A stretch of 63,049 nt of DNA, the filler included, from Globobulimina sp. (lineage: Eukaryota), in assembly GCA_003354225.1 (NCBI GenBank). It is 47 parts of 47 records of this genome, joined end to end, with 100 filler letters (N's around TTAATTAATTAA, not from the genome) between each part and the next. Parts side by side here need not be neighbours in the genome. Positions count along the whole stretch, not along the records: positions 53,754 to 54,996 come from PIVH01020259.1; 46 more parts are not named here. The stretch is one strand, 5' to 3'. Every line of letters begins with the position of its first letter. Positions within the stretch are counted from its first letter, which is position 1. Below the pieces are notes generated by a model. It worked only from the letters and a program-made list of their open reading frames with translations, did no database searches and was not told the origin of the DNA. The position numbers and the translations under genes are program-made. This document shows, one piece after another, positions 3,272-54,996 of this stretch.

Positions 3272-3935
3272 TCATTTGTTTTTTGGAATTTGTTTTTTGA
3301 TTATTGTTATTCTATCCACAATTTCTTCAAACCTGAATTCTCCGACCAGTTTGACAAGTGAATCGGCAACTGAATTATTAGATGAACGGATCTGCTCAAT
3401 TAGTTCGCTGGTCTGGCTCATGTTCAGAGCCAGAATGGCGGATTTCAGTTCATCCAGCAATTGTTCCGGCAGTTTGGCCAATACCTCCGGAGTCAATACC
3501 TCATCAAACAATAGCGCAGCAGCTTCTTTTTTATCGGGCTCTTCTTTATACAAAAATTCTACTCCAAGATGCCGGGCCATGGCATCAAATATCTCTGCTT
3601 CCTGAAACGGCTTTCGTATAAGGTCATTGCATCCTGCGGCAAGAATCTCTTCACGTTCTTCCTCAAAGGCATGTGCGGTCAGGGCAAGAATCGGGATATT
3701 TCGGATTTCGGATTTCGAATTTCGGATTTCCCGCGTAGCGGTATAGCCGTCCATCACAGGCATGCGCATGTCCATCCAGATGAGGTCGGGTTGCCAGCTC
3801 AAGAACAACTCGCCCCCCTCCTTGCCGTCTGTTGCCTCCTTAACTTCAAAACCAACTGATTGCATCAGCCTTCTCAATAAAATTCTACTTTCCTCACTAT
3901 CTTCGACAATGAGGATGCGGTAACGGGGTTGGTCC
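3272..3935 (-). CDS. Bacterial hybrid histidine kinase, C-terminal receiver domain, 5' partial
   Basis: RILIVED..PDLIWMDMRMPVMDG..PILALTA..KPF; frame is open to the contig edge. Confidence 0.92.
3696..3730. repeat. Heptamer tandem repeat (GGATTTC)-like x5 inside the receiver CDS
   Basis: atatttc ggatttc ggatttc gaatttc ggatttc; encodes EIRNSKSEIRNI. Confidence 0.85.
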
Positions 3936-4438
3936 NNNNNNNNNNNNNNNNNNNNNNNNNNNNNNNNNNNNNNNNNNNNTTAATTAATTAANNNNNNNNN
4001 NNNNNNNNNNNNNNNNNNNNNNNNNNNNNNNNNNNGTGTTGGTTTAAACTATGAGTGTTGTTAACGATGAATGAATTGTTTGTTTGTGATTGATTGTTCG
4101 TGCTTGAGAACAATGGCGAAAGGACGGTTTTACTTTACTTCACTAAGTTTAGTTTTAAAAATCGTTTAATTTTTTGCACGTAGATAAATATAGATTTTCT
4201 GTGTATAAATCATGTTTCATAATTGTAATAACCAACAGATTTAATTAAATCTATGTGTGAAGGATTGGTAAATAGAAAAAGTTATCTTCAAAACTTTAAG
4301 AAATCAATATGCACAAACATGGTATTATAAGCAAACCCAACATAATTAATCAAATTTTTTATTCCATAAGATTTTTATGGTAATAAATTAGTGTTTATAT
4401 ATGTCTCAGAAAGATAGTATGGAAAAAAAAAGTAATAT

Positions 4439-14467: not shown

Positions 14468-15074
14468 TATTTAACTAATGTCAATGTCCAATAATGAACT
14501 ATCAATATCATTCCATTATAACATTTATAAGCATATTGTCGATATCAGTCGCTTTATGCCATGCGAAAATGCGGGTGCTTTAATTTCTTTTTTTTTTAAT
14601 TCATTTTTCTAAGTGTTTATTGTTGTTTATATAATATAATATAGTATAGCTTCTGTTTTGTCACTTTTGTTTTTGTGTTTGTTTTTTAANNNNNNNNNNN
14701 NNNNNNNNNNNNNNNNNNNNNNNNNNNNNNNNNTTAATTAATTAANNNNNNNNNNNNNNNNNNNNNNNNNNNNNNNNNNNNNNNNNNNNTAAAACGTTGA
14801 AATAACTGACTGTAAAGTTGATATAATGAAATATAAATTATATAGACGGCGCAGCAGCAGCTTGCAACTTGACACTTGAGACCCTATTTCTGGGTGGTCC
14901 AATTCTACTTAATTAATTGTTAATTAATTAGTCATTGATTATTTTTAATTGATATCTTTGATTAATTAGTCAATCGCTAATTAAAATTAATGATTTGTTG
15001 ACACACAAAAATTTAACTAACTATAAATAGCTAGGAAATTTCATGCACATATCATTGTAAAATTATTTTTCATT

Positions 15075-16033
15075 ATGTTAACAAAATCTAAGAAGGAGAT
15101 TCTTGCAAAACTATTCTATGATAAATCAACTGGTTTTGTTTCGGCCAAGAAACTTTGGTTGCAAGTAAAGAAAGAAAACTCAACTGTTACACAAGAAGAT
15201 GTCAAACGATATTTGTCAACTCAACCAGCTTATGCAAGACATAAACAAGTACCAAAACCGAAAACATCTATTTGGAATCGATGGATCCTTGCTTCAAATC
15301 CTGGTCAACTTGTGGCAATTGATGGATGGTTTCTTGGCACTGGTACAAAATCACAATTTCAACATGCCCTCGTTGCAGTTGATGCATTTAGTAAATTTGC
15401 AGCTGTACAACCTATCAGAAATATGACAGCTGAAAACACAGCAAAAGCTATGGAAAAAATTATAAAAAATTTTAAATTTACAATTATTTCTACATACTCA
15501 GACCGTGGAAAAGAATTTGTTGGGAAACCATTTCGAGATATGATGAATCGATACAAAATTAGACAGATATTTACATCTGGTAACAATCCATCAAAAACTG
15601 CATTGGCTGAATCATTGATTCGTTCATTGAGAATTATACTAGGTCGACTTGTAACAAGTGGAGAATCTGGATGGAGTGCAGTAAAACATGCACTTGCCAT
15701 TTATAATAACTCTCCTCATCGTTCCATTGGAAACAAAACACCAAACAGTGTCACAAAGGCAAATGCAGGAAAATTTTTAAAATTTGTGACAGACAAGAGA
15801 GAGAAATTTATGGATAAACCTAAAATGCTAGCTCCACCAAAATTTGAAGTTGATGATGTTGTAAGACTTTTGGAACTAAATAAACAAGGAGCTTTCGATA
15901 AAATTAACATACCACGATGGAGCAAAGAATTGTATCGAGTATATAAAGTGTTGCACACTATCCCAAGACCCAGTTACATTCTGTCCAATCCAGTGAACGG
16001 TGCTATTTTGCCTGGAAGTTATCCAGAAAAATC
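15075..16033 (+). mobile_element. Polinton/Maverick-type (rve) integrase, 3' partial
   Basis: FYDKSTGFVSAKKL..VKRYL N-terminus; AID, SDRGKEF and AESLIR DDE triad; YNNSPHRSIG; PKFEVDDVVR..FDK..PRWSKELY. Confidence 0.9.
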
Positions 16034-16629
16034 NNNNNNNNNNNNNNNNNNNNNNNNNNNNNNNNNNNNNNNNNNNNTTAATTAATTAANNNNNNNNNNN
16101 NNNNNNNNNNNNNNNNNNNNNNNNNNNNNNNNNAATGGTGAATGTGAGTGATATTATATTATTCCACAGGATATCACAAATGCAATTAATGCGGTTCGAC
16201 AAATGAAATGTCTGAGTTTAAAACTAATCCAAAACCAATTATTTTCAATGAAGATCCTGATTTTAAGTTCAATTCAAGTTCAAATAATATGAAATCGGCA
16301 ATTTCAGGACATGCCTCAGGGGGTTATTATAATCAAGGTGCTAACGATTATGATCATGGATATCAATCACCTCCAACAGATCGGGCCATTAATACCAATG
16401 AAAAAGCTGCATTTTTTGAGGCTGTAGAAACTTATACAAAAAAATATTTTTACGAAGTGAGCGAGTAATCATAAATATAATAAATGTCTTCAAGTACAAT
16501 CTTTAAAATAAAATAATTCATAATAAAAAAATTAAAACAGCTAGGAAAAAAATAAAAAAATAAAGTAGAAAGTAGCTTTTTCGAATTCATGAATATCCAG
16601 TGTTTGAATCGGAATTTGTTGATTTACAT

Positions 16630-36193: not shown

Positions 36194-36293
36194 NNNNNNN
36201 NNNNNNNNNNNNNNNNNNNNNNNNNNNNNNNNNNNNNTTAATTAATTAANNNNNNNNNNNNNNNNNNNNNNNNNNNNNNNNNNNNNNNNNNNN

Positions 36294-37537
36294 TCCCTAT
36301 CATATCTGATATTATTCCACATTATCGGGTAAGGTTTATTAGTAATATCATTATAAAATTGCACGTGGTCCTCAAAATACTGTAAGTGTTTCTGCGGTAT
36401 TTCTGTTTTATCATAAGATTGCAATTTGTTGTTAACATTTATTGCCATTATTTGATTATTTATCGGTTTTTGAATGAGTATCATTGGGGCAGGTTTAAGT
36501 GTATTTATTTCATCATAAGCGTGGTATTCGTGGTTAATTAGGGCAATGTCATCAATGTTATATGTATTTATGTTATTTTTATTGATAGTATTATCATTAT
36601 AAGTGATGGTTTTACATTTCTTTGTATTGAATTTATAGCGCCATTTATTACTATGTGTTTCGCAGATATTTATTAATTTATTTAAGTGTGATATCTTGTT
36701 AGCCGTTAATATGATATCATCAGCATATAATGTGCAGGCTATCGGTTCCTCAGTGTTTGGTGAGGCAGCACCGTAATTTGAGTTTTGTAGTTCATGGATG
36801 AGATCGTTAAGGAATGCAGCATATAAAACTGGTGAGAGGACTGAGCCTTGCAATACTCCATTATGGAGGAGGAATTTGTTTGTTATGAATGGTATATCAC
36901 GGATGGCGGACTGCGAGTTATTGTAAATCGCTTTGATCAGTTTGCAAATATGAAGGGGTATATCAAATTGTGTATGTAATTTGTACAAAAGCCCTTTCCT
37001 CCAAACTGTGTCAAAGGCTTTTTTTATGTCTAACAGCGCGCAGTATAATGGTAGTTCGCGCATTTTAGCGGTCTCTGCAATTAAATTGATTGCCCCTATT
37101 TGTTCAGGTACGCCTCTTTTGGATCTATTGCCACCTTGCAATATGTGCAAGTTTGCCCTGAATTTGTGTTTTATACTCATCTCCCATAGGATTAGTCTTT
37201 CATAGGCCTTGAAGATGATGGGTAGTAATGTTATGGGTCTATATTGGTTTGGCGTGTCTCCATTTTTCGTTTTTAAAATAGGTATAATCGAACCTAAGCG
37301 GCAGTAATATGGGATGAAATATGTTTTATTCCAGACATTGTAGAGGGAGCATAATAATTTATTAATGTGATAACTGTTGGTTTTAAGGTGAATGGCTTTA
37401 ATGCCATCATATCCCGGGGCACTGTTCTGATTCGCGTATGAGACTGCTAATTCAATGGATTTGTATTTATTTTTGTTATTATTTTTATCAATGGTCTCTG
37501 GCACATCTTCATATTCGCGTTTTTCATCAATTTCCTC
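36294..37537 (-). mobile_element. Non-LTR retrotransposon reverse transcriptase, partial
   Basis: APGYDGI, YRPITLL, LDIKKAFDTV, GVLQGSVLSP, YADD, FNTKKC. Confidence 0.96.
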
Positions 37538-38274
37538 NNNNNNNNNNNNNNNNNNNNNNNNNNNNNNNNNNNNNNNNNNNNTTAATTAATTAANNNNNNN
37601 NNNNNNNNNNNNNNNNNNNNNNNNNNNNNNNNNNNNNATTAGGGATGGGATGGGATGGGATGGGATGCAACGTATTGCATCCCTCCATCGACATACAGAA
37701 TTCAACATTTCGCAATTTTAGAATTCCTGCTTTATCTAAGAGTATATGGATGGTACATATTCCGACATTACTGAAATCCATTCAAAAATATATGTAATTC
37801 ATTCAAAATACAGTATATGGAATTTAGTGTCAGATTATGGGAATTATATTGAAATTATCATGCGCGGTTCAATTCTATTCCCTACATTGCCGCCAAAAGC
37901 TATTATTCGATTATGCAATGTTGCCATGAATGTATGGTAGGCAGTAAAACCATAAGATATAACATTTATAAATTCTCGTTTTTTGTTGCGTATTTCTCAC
38001 CAACTCCGCAATCGCCATCGTCGTTGCCTCCAACAGAATAAAGTTTATTCGGATGATGTTTGATGAGAAACCTCCAGAAATCCCAATATAATTCACTTAT
38101 ATCATGTAATAATTGAGAAAATGGCGGCAATATTTGGTACTTTAATGCTTATGAATCATGATTTAAACCAAACTCTGTGTATTATTGGTTTTTGTAATAA
38201 CTGGAATTAAATAATGGAATATTATATAATATTAGTACTGTATTATATAAATTCCTTCTTTAGTTCCGAGATTA

Positions 38275-46113: not shown

Positions 46114-46164
46114 GCTATTTTATAATTAACTGTGTAAAAAACAAACCGAAAACATTCACACAAA

Positions 46165-46938
46165 ATGAACCATACTGTCAGGAAAAGACGGTCCCAATTA
46201 TTAGTAAGTGGATATGTTAGAAACTGTAGCACTCCATCCGTCCATACAGATATTATTAGTATCATTCATGCATTCCATTATTATATTTTATTGCTATTAT
46301 ATTCTATTGGTGAGAATACAGACGGACAACAAGGTAATGGACAAAATGAATATATTGAAAAAATAACAAAAATAAAAACATTTGAAAAAAAAATAAAAAA
46401 TATTGTTACTTGTGGTGCAGCAGCATATATTTTATTTGATGATGAAACATATGAATGCTGTGGCAATAATAGAAGGGGTGTATTAGGTGTTGGGCATTAT
46501 AATAATATTAATATATGGCATCAAATAAAAGATATGAAAATTAAAAATATATTTACAGCACCAAATGGATCAAATCACTCATTTTGTATTTCAAATGAGA
46601 ATAAATTATATGCTGTCGGATGGAATAAGAATAATCAATTTGGTATAAAAACAAATACAAGAAATAATAATAAATGGACACCAATTAATACAACATTATC
46701 GATTCAAAAAGTAGCCACATCAAGGCTATATACAACATTTTTAAGTGCAAATGGTAATATATACGTTGCTGGCGCTGATGATAATGGTTATGGTGGTTTA
46801 GGATTAGGAAAAGATATTAAGTCATCACCAAACATTCAAGAAATTCAAACAAAAATAAAATTTAAGGATATATATTGTGGAAGTGATCATACCTTAGCAA
46901 TTGATGATAATTATGGTGTTTGGTCGTGGGGATATGGT
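46165..46938 (+). CDS. RCC1-repeat protein with N-terminal LLVSGY motif, 3' partial
   Basis: YSIGENTDGQQGNG, GNNRRGVLGVG, GWNKNNQFG, IYCGSDHTLA..VWSWG. Confidence 0.88.
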
Positions 46939-47038
46939 NNNNNNNNNNNNNNNNNNNNNNNNNNNNNNNNNNNNNNNNNNNNTTAATTAATTAANNNNNN
47001 NNNNNNNNNNNNNNNNNNNNNNNNNNNNNNNNNNNNNN

Positions 47039-50967: not shown

Positions 50968-51067
50968 NNNNNNNNNNNNNNNNNNNNNNNNNNNNNNNNN
51001 NNNNNNNNNNNTTAATTAATTAANNNNNNNNNNNNNNNNNNNNNNNNNNNNNNNNNNNNNNNNNNNN

Positions 51068-51622
51068 ATTAATATAAGGAGTCTTCTGTTTTATGAAATT
51101 TGACTCAAGGATATTTGATATTTCAAAAATCCCAATATTGGTGCCAATTAGTAGATTACCATTACTGGCTTCAGCAATACAAGTCATATTTCGTGGAACA
51201 ACAAAAGAATCATCAGGTGTATGCAAACCAACTTTCATAAATTGCCCATTGTGCGGATGAAAATAGTTCAGGGCATTGTCAGTTCCTATCCATAGCATAT
51301 TTCTGGAATCTTCGAAGACAAAGAAAACATCATTACTTGATAGCGAAAATTGATCTGAAGGATCCAACTCAAAAGAGTTAAATGTATATCCATCATACTT
51401 GAGAAGACCTCCATCTTTTGTTCCAACCCACATATATCCGTTGTGATCCTCAGTTAATGAGCTTATACGATAATGTGGTAAGTTGGCATTTTCACCAATG
51501 TTCTCAAAGTTGGGAAAGAAATATTTATTTGTAGGGTATAAATCTGTAACATCTATTACCTGTCCGAAAACCATGGTAATGGAAAGAAACTGAATAGCCA
51601 GTATTTTAAATAACCCTCTCAC
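51068..51622 (-). CDS. Bacterial two-component sensor, beta-propeller (Reg_prop) N-terminus
   Basis: Signal peptide; EDHNGYMWVGTKDGGLLKYDG, LSSNDV..EDSRNMLWIGT. Confidence 0.88.
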
Positions 51623-51721: not shown

Positions 51722-52310
51722 TTATGATTTTGTGTTTGCCACAGTACGTTTCAGCAATGTTGTATAAATTGGTTCATTACCCAATTGTGCTGTTACCACT
51801 GATGCAGTAACTGTTGTAATTATTAAAGGAAGGATAAGTTCATAATTTGATGTCATTTCAACGGCTAGTACCAATCCCGTTAGAGGGGCTCTTACCGTTG
51901 ATGCAAATATTCCAGCCATTCCTGCCACTGCATAAATACCAGGATGTGAAACAAGCCCTGGAAAATAGTGCTGAACAACACTTCCAAATAACATTCCGAA
52001 AACCACTCCAAGTGCTAGCATTGGTGCGAAAATACCACCGGGTACACCAATACCATAGCTTAGAATTGTTAGCAGGATTCTGCCAACAAATAGAATTAGC
52101 AATACATTTAAAGTATATGAATGATCAAGTACTTTGCCGATTGTATTGTACCCCCCTCCAATCATCTCAGGAAAAAATACTCCGATTATTGCTATTATTA
52201 CTCCTGCTGCAATAACACTAAATATCAGAGCAATTCTTGACAGATCCTTAAAGAAATCCAATGATACTACCAGTAGTTTATTAAAAAGATAACCCACTAA
52301 ACTAAATAAA
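51722..52310 (-). CDS. clcA: H+/Cl- exchange transporter, C-terminal part (bacterial)
   Basis: GVPGGIFAPML, VRAPLTG..EMT..LILP, PIY. Confidence 0.92.
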
Positions 52311-52768
52311 NNNNNNNNNNNNNNNNNNNNNNNNNNNNNNNNNNNNNNNNNNNNTTAATTAATTAANNNNNNNNNNNNNNNNNNNNNNNNNNNNNNNNNN
52401 NNNNNNNNNNTATCATTTTATTTTAATAATATATCTATTATATTAATAAGTTTCATTGGAGATTTAATTATTTTTTAAAAGAAAATGGGGGAAACATGGC
52501 CATGTTGGTTTTTAAAAAGTATATGGAAAGTTTATAAAGATATATACATATAACAGCTGTTTACCTGTTTTATTATTTATTTTTTATTATAAATCTCGCC
52601 CCTTTTTAAAGAGTCAATGTAATTGAAATAAGAATTGTAAATTCTAATTGAAATGAACACCCTCCAATTGTAATGTTCTCTGTGATTTTCTGGTTAGTTT
52701 TTAAGTTAAAAATCAAAACATTTAAAAAAACATTTAAACAATGGATTCTGAGTTGGCAAAGTAAATCA

Positions 52769-53753: not shown

Positions 53754-54996
53754 GGATTTTATTGATCCAACTGTGCTTCCTCGCTGAAGTAAGGGAGATT
53801 AAGCCCGCATCTGTGAAGTGCGATTCTATTTATTTAGATTATATTTTGTTGGAGGGTCCACGCGGAATAAGTGACGCCAAAATATCAAGGAAAGCAGTGC
53901 CATTGTTATGGATATTATTTTATTTTACTCTCATCATATTGTATTTATTTCGAGTTGGAGGGATAAGCGGTTGCGCACCAGAACAAATTCAATGGGTTTT
54001 AGTGCAATGTGGTGTGTCTAATGAATTTTATGGCAGACATGGTAGTATGAATCATTTTAATTGACACACCGGAATTTGGTCGGATTGCTTAGTTATTTTG
54101 TAAATATATAAAAGTCAAATATTATTTTGCGAATTTGTGACATTGTTGAGTGATTTGTGATTTATGTGTTGTTTATTTTGTGTGTTTGGCGTGACTGTGA
54201 CTTAAGTAGTTTTTTGCTGATGTTTCATCAACAAAAAAACATTTCTTTACTCGCTCTTCATGTTTCAATGACAGAGTTTACTTTTTTTCTTTTTGTAACG
54301 GGAGTGTGCATTGCAGGAGGTGCTTATTTTGCATTACCCTGGCCTCGCTCTGTTATTATTATTATATTAATTAAATCGATTTTATTCATCAACATCTCAA
54401 CGGATTCCCAAAAATCCAAATACCTCTTTAGTAGGTTTAGCAACGAAATTCATCAAATCAACACTATAATTTCGCTATATTTTATTTATAATTTAATTAT
54501 TAGTCCTTTATGGATACAATGTGTATGGTTTGGACCAACCGATATGGGGTACGCATCAGTGGGTTGTTCTCAATCGACGTGGAGTATGTTAGTACCGCAT
54601 CTCTTTGATATTTTATTACTATCATTGAGCTATGAGTCTGTTATGGCATCGGTCGACATTAGAAACAACATTTTATGGTTTGTTTTAGTTTTTGAGCTGC
54701 CGCATGTTTTTGTTTGTCTTTGTGGTGGTAGCGGTATTCCGGGAGCGTTGAACATATTTTATTATTGGTTTTACATATTTTATTATTGGTATTATTGGAT
54801 TATTAATCAATTTTATTTTGTACATGTCATGGATTATATATTTTTAGCATTATTTGTACGGTGGATAACTCACAGAAGGATTTTATTGATCCAACTGTGC
54901 TTCCTCGCTGAAGTAAGGGAGATTAAGCCCGCATCTGTGAAGTGCGATTCTATTTATTTAGATTATATTTTGTTGGAGGGTCCACGCGGAATAAGT
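53754..54996. repeat. Contig with exact 119-nt terminal direct repeat: circular or tandem unit of 1124 nt
   Basis: 53754-53872 is identical to 54878-54996. Confidence 0.95.
54157..54996 (+). CDS. Hydrophobic multi-TM ORF continuing across the junction to the stop at 54064
   Basis: End of ORF 54157 (IQLCFLAEVRE..GPRGIS) equals start of ORF 53762..54064. Confidence 0.55.

What the first reader, a model, noticed from the sequence alone, without database searches (positions are those of the whole stretch)
53754..54996. 1124-nt circular or tandem unit almost entirely filled by one orphan membrane-protein ORF
Seen: the first and last 119 nt are identical. Joined, one stop-free frame covers about 1030 of 1124 nt (54157 through the junction to 54064, about 340 aa), is very hydrophobic and lies on a T-rich strand without introns. 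Known: an exact end overlap is how de Bruijn assemblers emit cycles, and 119 is a default MEGAHIT k. Inference: a one-gene minicircle (organellar, plasmid or viral segment) or a tandem gene array. A faint by-eye likeness to cox3 (W..PT..G, VP.L..LL.S, then HV about 77 aa later) is only suggestive.
Basis: partly seen in the sequence, partly recalled or inferred. Interest (0 to 1): 0.72.

Follow-up and report, generated by a model that had tools for sequence, protein, structure and literature searches.

The report
Penelope parasite with sham reading frame
The self-closing contig is one unit of a small non-autonomous jumping element that shares its insertion end with a Penelope-type retrotransposon in a probable foraminifer, and its long reading frame is kept free of stop codons even though the protein sequence drifts almost freely, which suggests that being translated matters more than the protein made.

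Summary
The 119-nt end overlap, 1124-nt unit and stop-free frame are real, but this is not a cox3 or organellar minicircle. A ~100-nt core (54445-54547) is shared with the terminal repeat (pLTR) of an autonomous Penelope-like element (PLE) in the same assembly, which has RT, GIY-YIG and a minimal hammerhead. Dispersed copies of both families are 5'-truncated and stop just behind the same box. One copy has an empty site on record; another splits a host gene. The contig's overlap lies inside the element body, so closure most likely reflects a head-to-tail PLE-type arrangement.

The unusual part is the ORF. It starts at 54268 (306 codons). It stays open for 261-405 codons in 7 near-full copies up to about 45% diverged, although neutral re-dealing predicts 8-21 stops. 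Yet dN/dS is 0.84 (0.67-1.09), against 0.08-0.17 for the PLE ORF. Long stretches are read in different frames, and the hydrophobicity follows from base composition. The element lacks the hammerhead, whereas two ORF-less sister units keep it.

Best reading: a ribozyme-less PLE parasite that needs translation in cis, as some viral defective RNAs do. This is inferred, not tested.

The parts
53754..54996 (+). Whole contig: one 1124-nt unit of a non-autonomous Penelope-associated element plus the 119-nt assembler overlap
   Evidence: 42 matches in G000 at 67-100% identity
53754..53872 (+). Overlap copy 1. Lies inside the element body and inside the ORF; not a biological end
   Evidence: L003, L004, L005, L008, L031 and L050 run linearly through it; a contig of run X7 bridges it with the expected 14 letters
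54878..54996 (+). Overlap copy 2
54268..54996 (+). ORF, first part, from the conserved ATG (protein begins MTEF). 306 codons in all
   Evidence: same start in L001, L002, L004, L005, L008 and L037
53873..54064 (+). ORF, last part after the overlap, ending in TGA at 54062-54064
   Evidence: L002 and L003 stop at the same place
54065..54267 (+). Non-coding part (203 nt, 44% T) that tolerates frameshifting indels; probable UTR/promoter region
   Evidence: promoter role is inference
54210..54238 (+). Short conserved hairpin upstream of the ATG
   Evidence: RNAalifold on 13 copies, no real covariation; coordinates
54402..54417 (+). 5-bp hairpin at about the spacing where the PLE has helix II of its hammerhead; no catalytic core. 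Remnant status is speculative
54445..54547 (+). Core shared with the pLTR and ORF start of the autonomous PLE and with ORF-less hammerhead units
   Evidence: blastn 75-81%; nhmmer E 5e-20 to 9e-12; 21 places in G000, control 0
54462..54469 (+). CACTATAA box that precedes the common 3' end of insertions in both families
54480..54502 (+). AT-rich zone where dispersed copies end: the true 3' terminus of the element
   Evidence: loose ends at 54495-54500 in runs X1, X5 and X7
54648..54657 (+). Second short block shared with the start of the PLE ORF

Best explanation
The unit is a non-autonomous element mobilised in trans by a Penelope-like retrotransposon (PLE) of the same, probably foraminiferan, genome. 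SHOWN: it shares the PLE's terminal ~100-nt signal; copies have one fixed 3' end and variable 5' ends; full copies are one unit plus a partial repeat; two insertion sites are visible; it has no RT, nuclease or hammerhead; its ORF is held open without detectable constraint on the amino acids. INFERRED: an RNA of about 1.4 kb is made from one terminal repeat into the next; ribosomes translate it from 54268; the PLE's RT and GIY-YIG nuclease copy it from its 3' end into AT-rich targets by target-primed reverse transcription; partial or full tandems then close into a loop in the assembly graph. The ORF is kept because translation is needed in cis, either to escape nonsense-mediated decay or silencing, or to sit on ribosomes where new PLE protein is made. 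Sister parasites that keep the hammerhead have no ORF. Confidence: about 0.88 for PLE-mobilised element, about 0.6 for translation-not-protein, about 0.75 for chromosomal rather than free circle.
For: Shared core: nhmmer E 5e-20 to 9e-12; 21 places in G000 (9 of this family, 12 PLE-type), reversed-pattern control 0. Helper: 1384-codon ORF whose RT-EN part hits RVT_1/HTH_animal/GIY-YIG clusters at 0.93-0.94 and a PF26215/PF28514 protein at E 1.7e-27; L089 has terminal repeats at both ends; minimal hammerhead at 37 places in 34 loci, 0 of 23 loci of this family. Fixed 3' end: 14 box copies of this family stop behind the box and 9 run on (one duplicate row dropped; L032 and L033 may be one insertion); PLE type 23 stop, 12 run on, 4 hit contig ends. 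Empty site in 5 of 8 fetched contigs for the L005 copy; L050 copy = unit plus 170-nt repeat inside a host coding region. ORF: 261-405 codons in 7 copies; re-dealing the observed changes gives 7.7-20.8 stops, stop-free in 0-3 of 2000 for each of 9 pairs; dN/dS 0.84 (0.67-1.09) pooled over 3 disjoint pairs versus 0.075-0.17 for 4 PLE pairs; up to 211 aligned codons read in another frame; GRAVY within the shuffled range. PLE traits as described in PMC8557442, PMC3846280, PMC4209133. Precedent for translation needed in cis: PMC4395149 introduction.
Against: No transcript ends, ribosome data or mobilisation assay; runs X6 and X7 are only guessed to be RNA. Pfam itself did not name the helper's RT and its single-sequence fold failed. 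One of 21 pairs has a dN/dS interval below 1 (L008-L037, 0.23-0.85, 88 codons). Amino-acid identity exceeds re-dealt values in 3 of 7 pairs and changes are conservative in L001-L002, so weak protein constraint is not excluded. L005's ORF ends early (261 codons) and the L031 fragment has an internal stop. One of 28 listed variants in the ORF would make a stop on its own; it shares a codon with a neighbouring change in X7 and is unresolved in X5. Firm homology to the PLE is limited to about 105 nt plus one 10-nt block; the origin of the rest is unknown. No clear target-site duplication was seen. Pairs are not independent and alignments at 50-60% identity are uncertain.
Confidence: 0.6

Rival explanations
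1. PLE-mobilised element whose protein does act, but needs only length and general hydrophobicity or is under diversifying selection (for example a selfish poison/antidote-like or membrane-anchoring product; the analogy to fission-yeast wtf genes is recalled, not tested).
For: Stop-free frame under strong selection; conserved ATG and N-terminal stretch; 2-4 hydrophobic windows per copy and slightly raised amino-acid identity in 3 of 7 pairs; pooled dN/dS point estimate below 1.
Against: Hydrophobicity equals that of shuffled bases and of the +1 frame; ORF-less sister units are equally T-rich, 42%; all three codon positions diverge alike and 130-211 aligned codons of L037 are in another frame; AlphaFold pLDDT 39 on a 6-row alignment (weak evidence).
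Confidence: 0.22
2. A host gene captured between PLE terminal repeats and amplified in trans, as described for Adineta vaga, now decaying neutrally.
For: PLE repeats can carry host genes in trans (PMC3846280 passages); dN/dS near 1.
Against: No parent gene: the protein search of G000 returned 31 matches, 30 on contigs of this family and one marginal hit at E 0.01; 1 hit among 1.84 billion representatives, itself a family member. Neutral decay would bring 8-21 stops. The ORF begins inside and runs through the terminal signal.
Confidence: 0.08
3. One-gene organellar minicircle (cox3, cob or cox1, perhaps edited or recoded).
For: T-rich intronless ORF, self-closing contigs, high polymorphism; by-eye likenesses only.
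Against: No Pfam, PDB or hhalign support; 12 TGG and no TGA in the frame; foraminiferan mitogenomes described so far are 22-50 kb multi-gene molecules (PMC10127745, PMC13421374); PLE core and nuclear insertions.
Confidence: 0.03
4. Autonomous plasmid, viral segment or Obelisk/viroid-like circle of a symbiont.
For: Circular-mapping unit of about 1.1 kb with one ORF; present in 4 studies.
Against: Not rod-like: circular fold -254 kcal/mol versus -245 to -277 for 3 shuffles, 21 hairpins; no Rfam match of note; 0 hits in viral and metagenome contigs; no replication protein; chromosomal insertions with a PLE-type end.
Confidence: 0.04

Closest known systems
Non-autonomous Penelope-like elements (MRC1 and other non-autonomous Chlamys elements; PMC8557442, passages)
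   Same: pLTR-type partial tandems and head-to-tail copies, 5' truncation, likeness to the autonomous family confined to the terminal region, no canonical hammerhead needed
   Different: This element carries a 260-405-codon ORF under selection against stops; its helper is a C-terminal-EN PLE with a minimal hammerhead; the host is a probable foraminifer (the words foraminifer and Rhizaria do not occur in that paper)
Non-LTR retrozymes (PMC7229834, passages; bioRxiv 10.64898/2026.07.22.740005, parts 1-2 of 5)
   Same: Tandem units related to PLE pLTRs, low GC, presumed PLE mobilisation
   Different: Retrozymes are defined by a type I hammerhead in each unit and encode no protein; this unit has no hammerhead, has a long ORF and is larger (1124-1387 nt versus 51-972). 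The sister units L035 (800 nt) and L046 (663 nt) do fit the retrozyme description
Defective (interfering) RNAs of coronaviruses and arteriviruses that need an open frame in cis (PMC4395149 introduction; van der Most 1995 and Molenkamp 2000 seen as reference titles only)
   Same: Works like it: a helper-dependent parasite keeps a long ORF whose sequence seems not to matter
   Different: Those are RNA-virus derivatives copied by an RdRp; this is a chromosomal retroelement, and the requirement is inferred from evolution, not tested
PLE-framed host genes of Adineta vaga (PMC3846280, passages)
   Same: Non-PLE coding sequence moved in trans by pLTR signals; empty sites; junctions by microhomology without TSD
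   Different: Those cargoes are recognisable host genes; this ORF has no parent, overlaps the terminal signal and shows no clear protein-level constraint

Membership tests
Non-autonomous Penelope-like element | Terminal sequence shared with an autonomous PLE of the same genome | tested here: met
   (E 5e-20 to 9e-12)
Non-autonomous Penelope-like element | Autonomous partner with one ORF, RT plus C-terminal GIY-YIG, and pLTRs | tested here: met
   Pfam scan alone was blank
Non-autonomous Penelope-like element | Fixed 3' end and variable 5' truncation | tested here: met
   14 stop, 9 run on
Non-autonomous Penelope-like element | Partial tandem (pLTR) or head-to-tail copies | tested here: met
   L050 unit plus 170 nt, L005 unit plus about 250 nt; 5 of 9 core-bearing contigs close on themselves
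Non-autonomous Penelope-like element | Insertion shown by an empty site | tested here: met
   (5 of 8 contigs); host coding region split in L050
Non-autonomous Penelope-like element | Target-site duplication | tested here: inconclusive
   Two junctions show short microhomology and a few extra bases; TSD is optional in PLEs
Non-autonomous Penelope-like element | Mobilisation by the PLE enzyme | not testable with these tools
   needs a trans-mobilisation assay
Non-LTR retrozyme | Type I hammerhead in each unit | tested here: not met
   0 of 23 family loci; 0 of 7 units with a widened core pattern, positive control found
Non-LTR retrozyme | No protein-coding frame | tested here: not met
Mitochondrial cox3/cob/cox1 minicircle | Detectable homology to the respiratory protein | tested here: not met
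   a reliable fold comparison was not possible
Obelisk/viroid-like circular RNA | Rod-like self-complementary fold | tested here: not met
Conventional protein-coding gene family | Purifying selection on amino acids and one conserved frame | tested here: not met
   (0.84 versus 0.075-0.17 control)
Free extrachromosomal circle | Physical covalently closed DNA or RNA | not testable with these tools
   only contigs were available

The most novel reading that the evidence does not exclude
A retrotransposon parasite has evolved a sham gene: about 300-400 codons kept open only so that its RNA is translated, replacing the ribozyme/circular-RNA route used by its ORF-less sisters. One PLE would then support two parasite strategies (hammerhead without ORF; ORF without hammerhead). 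This would be a natural probe of what the still obscure PLE replication cycle needs from its RNA, and a reservoir of translated, unconstrained sequence.
Probability: 0.5. Interest if true: 0.78.

Novelty: new variant of a known kind. Interest (0 to 1): 0.63.

Why it matters
Non-autonomous retroelements are usually described as non-coding. Here selection keeps a long frame open while the protein drifts, which points to translation as a cis requirement, a principle known from viral defective RNAs. I did not find it described for a retrotransposon in my searches (open-licence library only). The element marks a ~100-nt cis signal and a precise 3' end for a PLE, and comes with a natural comparison (hammerhead sisters without ORF), so the PLE cycle becomes testable. 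It also warns that a long hydrophobic orphan ORF on a self-closing contig need not be a gene for a functional protein or a minicircle.

Tried and rejected
Pfam scans of 11 family frames and fragments at E<=10: only noise. PDB profile search: 0. Word search with alignment A1: 0 of 4931 candidates. Representatives: 1 hit, a family member. ESM Atlas for the 402-aa paralogue: best 0.79, no family. AlphaFold: pLDDT 39 for the paralogue and 31 for the helper RT, so no fold search was run. By-eye likenesses to cox3, cob and cox1 were rejected (for cob and cox1). Organellar genes in G000: one ordinary cob fragment, one TGA=W cox1 that looks ciliate-like by recall, one nad1 fragment, no cox3; host mitochondrial genes may simply be missing from the assembly. 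Tables 4 and 6 do not open the unit into an endless frame. Rfam: nothing of note. Rod-like fold: no. RNAalifold of the region around the ATG: 1 of 52 pairs with a double change, so no structural support. Metagenome and viral pattern scans: 0. No RNA holder listed. No look-alike among earlier findings by sequence or words. Hairpin- and HDV-type ribozymes were judged by eye only and did not fit. Supplements of the cited papers (PLE consensus lists of PMC8557442, preprint tables) were not seen and may hold rhizarian PLEs or ORF-bearing non-autonomous families.

Full report
CONTEXT. The window is 47 unrelated contigs of about 1.24 kb joined by spacers, from a 70-Mb, 48,370-contig assembly, G000. 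The host is probably a foraminifer: the best hit with an organism name for a window gelsolin is Ammonia, and the assembly holds a many-copy nitric-oxide-reductase-like gene (the link to foraminiferan denitrification is recalled). Other organisms are mixed in. That the element belongs to the foraminifer is inference from its insertions beside eukaryotic genes.

OBSERVATION. The end overlap is exactly 119 nt and the unit 1124 nt. One frame is stop-free for 344 codons round the join, against a median of 97 and a maximum of 196 in 300 simulations. End overlaps of 119 nt occur in 8 of 33 whole contigs that match the unit, in 0 of 40 evenly picked contigs and in 0 of the 46 other window contigs. The overlap is not a biological junction: six other contigs run straight through it, and a contig from another study bridges it with the expected 14 letters. 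The stretch is held by 9 listed runs of 4 studies; the best may be the source sample.

A FAMILY. A DNA search of G000 gave 42 matches. L001, L002, L008 and L037 are one-unit loops of 1124, 1143, 1387 and 1235 nt; L002, L008 and L037 are 92, 71 and 57% identical to L001. All share an ATG at window 54268 and read 306, 314, 405 and 327 codons from it. L004 reads 272 codons to its contig end, L005 reads 261, and the 5'-truncated L050 copy has 364 open codons. The protein has no Pfam, PDB or outside homologue and no match to the cob or cox1 in the assembly.

IT IS A MOBILE ELEMENT WITH A FIXED 3' END. Many matches are fragments inside ordinary nuclear contigs. They begin at various places but end 10-35 nt behind a CACTATAA box (54462-54469): 14 box copies stop there and 9 run on (one duplicate row dropped; L032 and L033 may be one insertion). 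L050 is one unit plus a 170-nt direct repeat and splits a host coding region whose two sides read on as one repeat-type protein by eye. In L005 a copy sits in another repeat, and 5 of 8 fetched contigs show the empty site, the other 3 ending at that point. No clear target-site duplication was seen.

THE HELPER. Window 54445-54547 is shared with a second family (nhmmer E 5e-20 to 9e-12). A 23-nt core pattern occurs at 21 places in G000, 9 of this family and 12 of the other, with 0 for the reversed control. The second family is a Penelope-like element. L088 holds a 1384-codon ORF that starts in the core. Its residues 570-1290 hit RVT_1, HTH_animal and GIY-YIG clusters at 0.93-0.94 and a PF26215/PF28514 protein at E 1.7e-27. 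Pfam alone did not name it. L089 has the terminal repeat at both ends. PLE-type copies stop behind the same box: 23 stop, 12 run on, 4 reach a contig end. Upstream of the box lies a minimal type I hammerhead with a U3-A8 core, one extra base before helix II and a palindromic helix III, at 37 places in 34 loci (41 hits in 82 loci, 4 of them unrelated; 2 hits in the window as background). These features match those described for PLE hammerheads (PMC4209133, parts 1-2 of 4 read). 5' truncation, partial tandems, non-autonomous head-to-tail copies and action in trans are described PLE traits (PMC8557442 and PMC3846280, passages). The finding's family has no hammerhead: 0 of 23 loci and 0 of 7 units with a widened pattern. 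Two ORF-less loops, L035 (800 nt) and L046 (663 nt), keep it and fit the retrozyme description (PMC7229834 passages; bioRxiv 10.64898/2026.07.22.740005 parts 1-2 of 5).

THE ODD ORF. Openness is selected. Re-dealing the observed substitutions and indels at random gives 7.7-20.8 stops, and a stop-free result in 0-3 of 2000 trials for each of 9 pairs. The other two frames carry 10-28 stops each. In four public runs, 9 of the 12 best-supported indels are 1-2-nt indels in the 203-nt non-coding part; the 918-nt ORF has one 3-nt deletion and one +1/-1 pair 5 nt apart (40 more not shown). The protein is barely constrained. dN/dS spans 0.50-1.25 over 21 pairs, only one interval excluding 1. Pooled over 3 disjoint pairs it is 0.84 (0.67-1.09), against 0.075-0.17 for 4 pairs of the helper ORF by the same script. 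The three codon positions diverge alike. Copies carry 2-17 frameshifting indels that compensate, and up to 211 aligned codons are read in another frame. The PLE core is read in three frames among copies. GRAVY lies within the range of shuffled bases, and the ORF-less sisters are equally T-rich. Against this: amino-acid identity exceeds re-dealt values in 3 of 7 pairs, which clustering of changes could also cause, and changes are conservative in L001-L002; the L031 fragment has a stop; 1 of 28 listed ORF variants is a possible stop.

MECHANISM (inferred). An RNA runs from before 54268 through one unit to the box of the next. The PLE's RT and nuclease recognise the shared end and copy it into AT-rich sites from the 3' end, giving truncated copies, unit-plus-repeat copies and tandems that an assembler closes into loops. 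Because the ATG lies upstream of where the PLE has its hammerhead, a working ribozyme there would cut the ORF; its absence fits. The simplest reason for an open but unconstrained frame is that translation is needed in cis, for RNA survival or for access to newly made helper protein. A review passage states this principle for some viral RNAs (PMC4395149; the primary papers were seen as titles only).

COMPARISON AND NOVELTY. It passes the tests I could run for a non-autonomous PLE and fails those for retrozyme, organellar minicircle, Obelisk-like RNA and conventional gene family. Described foraminiferan mitogenomes are 22-50 kb and multi-gene (PMC13421374 part 1 of 6; PMC10127745 passages and Results parts 1-2 of 3). 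In nine literature searches (listings only, except the papers named) I found no non-autonomous retroelement with such an ORF and no PLE described from Foraminifera. The library lacks most subscription papers and I saw no supplements. Earlier AI notes on this genome report PLE hammerheads and other self-closing repeats, but none on this family.

VERDICT. Real feature; new variant of a known kind. PLE-mobilised element about 0.88; translation rather than protein about 0.6; free circle undecided. Interest 0.63.

Noticed in passing
L088:70-4221, L089 (whole), L090, L091, L104: An endonuclease-bearing Penelope-like family with RT, C-terminal GIY-YIG, long acidic C-terminal tail and a U3-A8 minimal hammerhead in a probable foraminifer; canonical C-terminal-EN PLEs are described as nearly confined to animals (PMC8557442).
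   Followed up: partly
L035 (800-nt unit), L046 (663-nt unit), L043: ORF-less self-closing units that keep the hammerhead and the start of the PLE ORF: retrozyme-like derivatives in a protist.
   Followed up: partly
L005:165-1214; L158-L165: The target of one insertion is itself a high-copy repeat whose 80-nt piece lies at many contig ends; another repeat family sits at L005:460-630.
   Followed up: partly
L050:1-1023 and 2510 onward: A host gene with a protease-like part and RCC1-like repeats (by eye) split by a full copy of the element; a related RCC1-like frame lies at window 46138-46986.
   Followed up: partly
L022, L024-L030: A 799-codon nitric-oxide-reductase-like gene (COX1 family hit) with at least eight further diverged or frameshifted copies; three of these contigs also carry short pieces similar to flanks of the element's copies.
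   Followed up: no
L023, L020, L051: A TGA=W cox1 with a long insertion (ciliate-like by recall), an ordinary cob fragment and a nad1 fragment, probably from prey or contaminants; no host-type mitochondrial genes were found.
   Followed up: partly
L040 (4095-nt unit): Self-closing contig with a sugar-transporter-like gene, a 558-codon frame and only short pieces of the element: closure also happens for nuclear segments.
   Followed up: no
window 15027-16085 and 36242-37585: Integrase-like frame and LINE-type reverse-transcriptase frame (by eye) on other contigs of the window.
   Followed up: no
window 3272-3979, 51020-51622, 51722-52354: Bacterial-looking frames (response regulator, sensor propeller, chloride channel; by eye): the assembly is mixed.
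   Followed up: no
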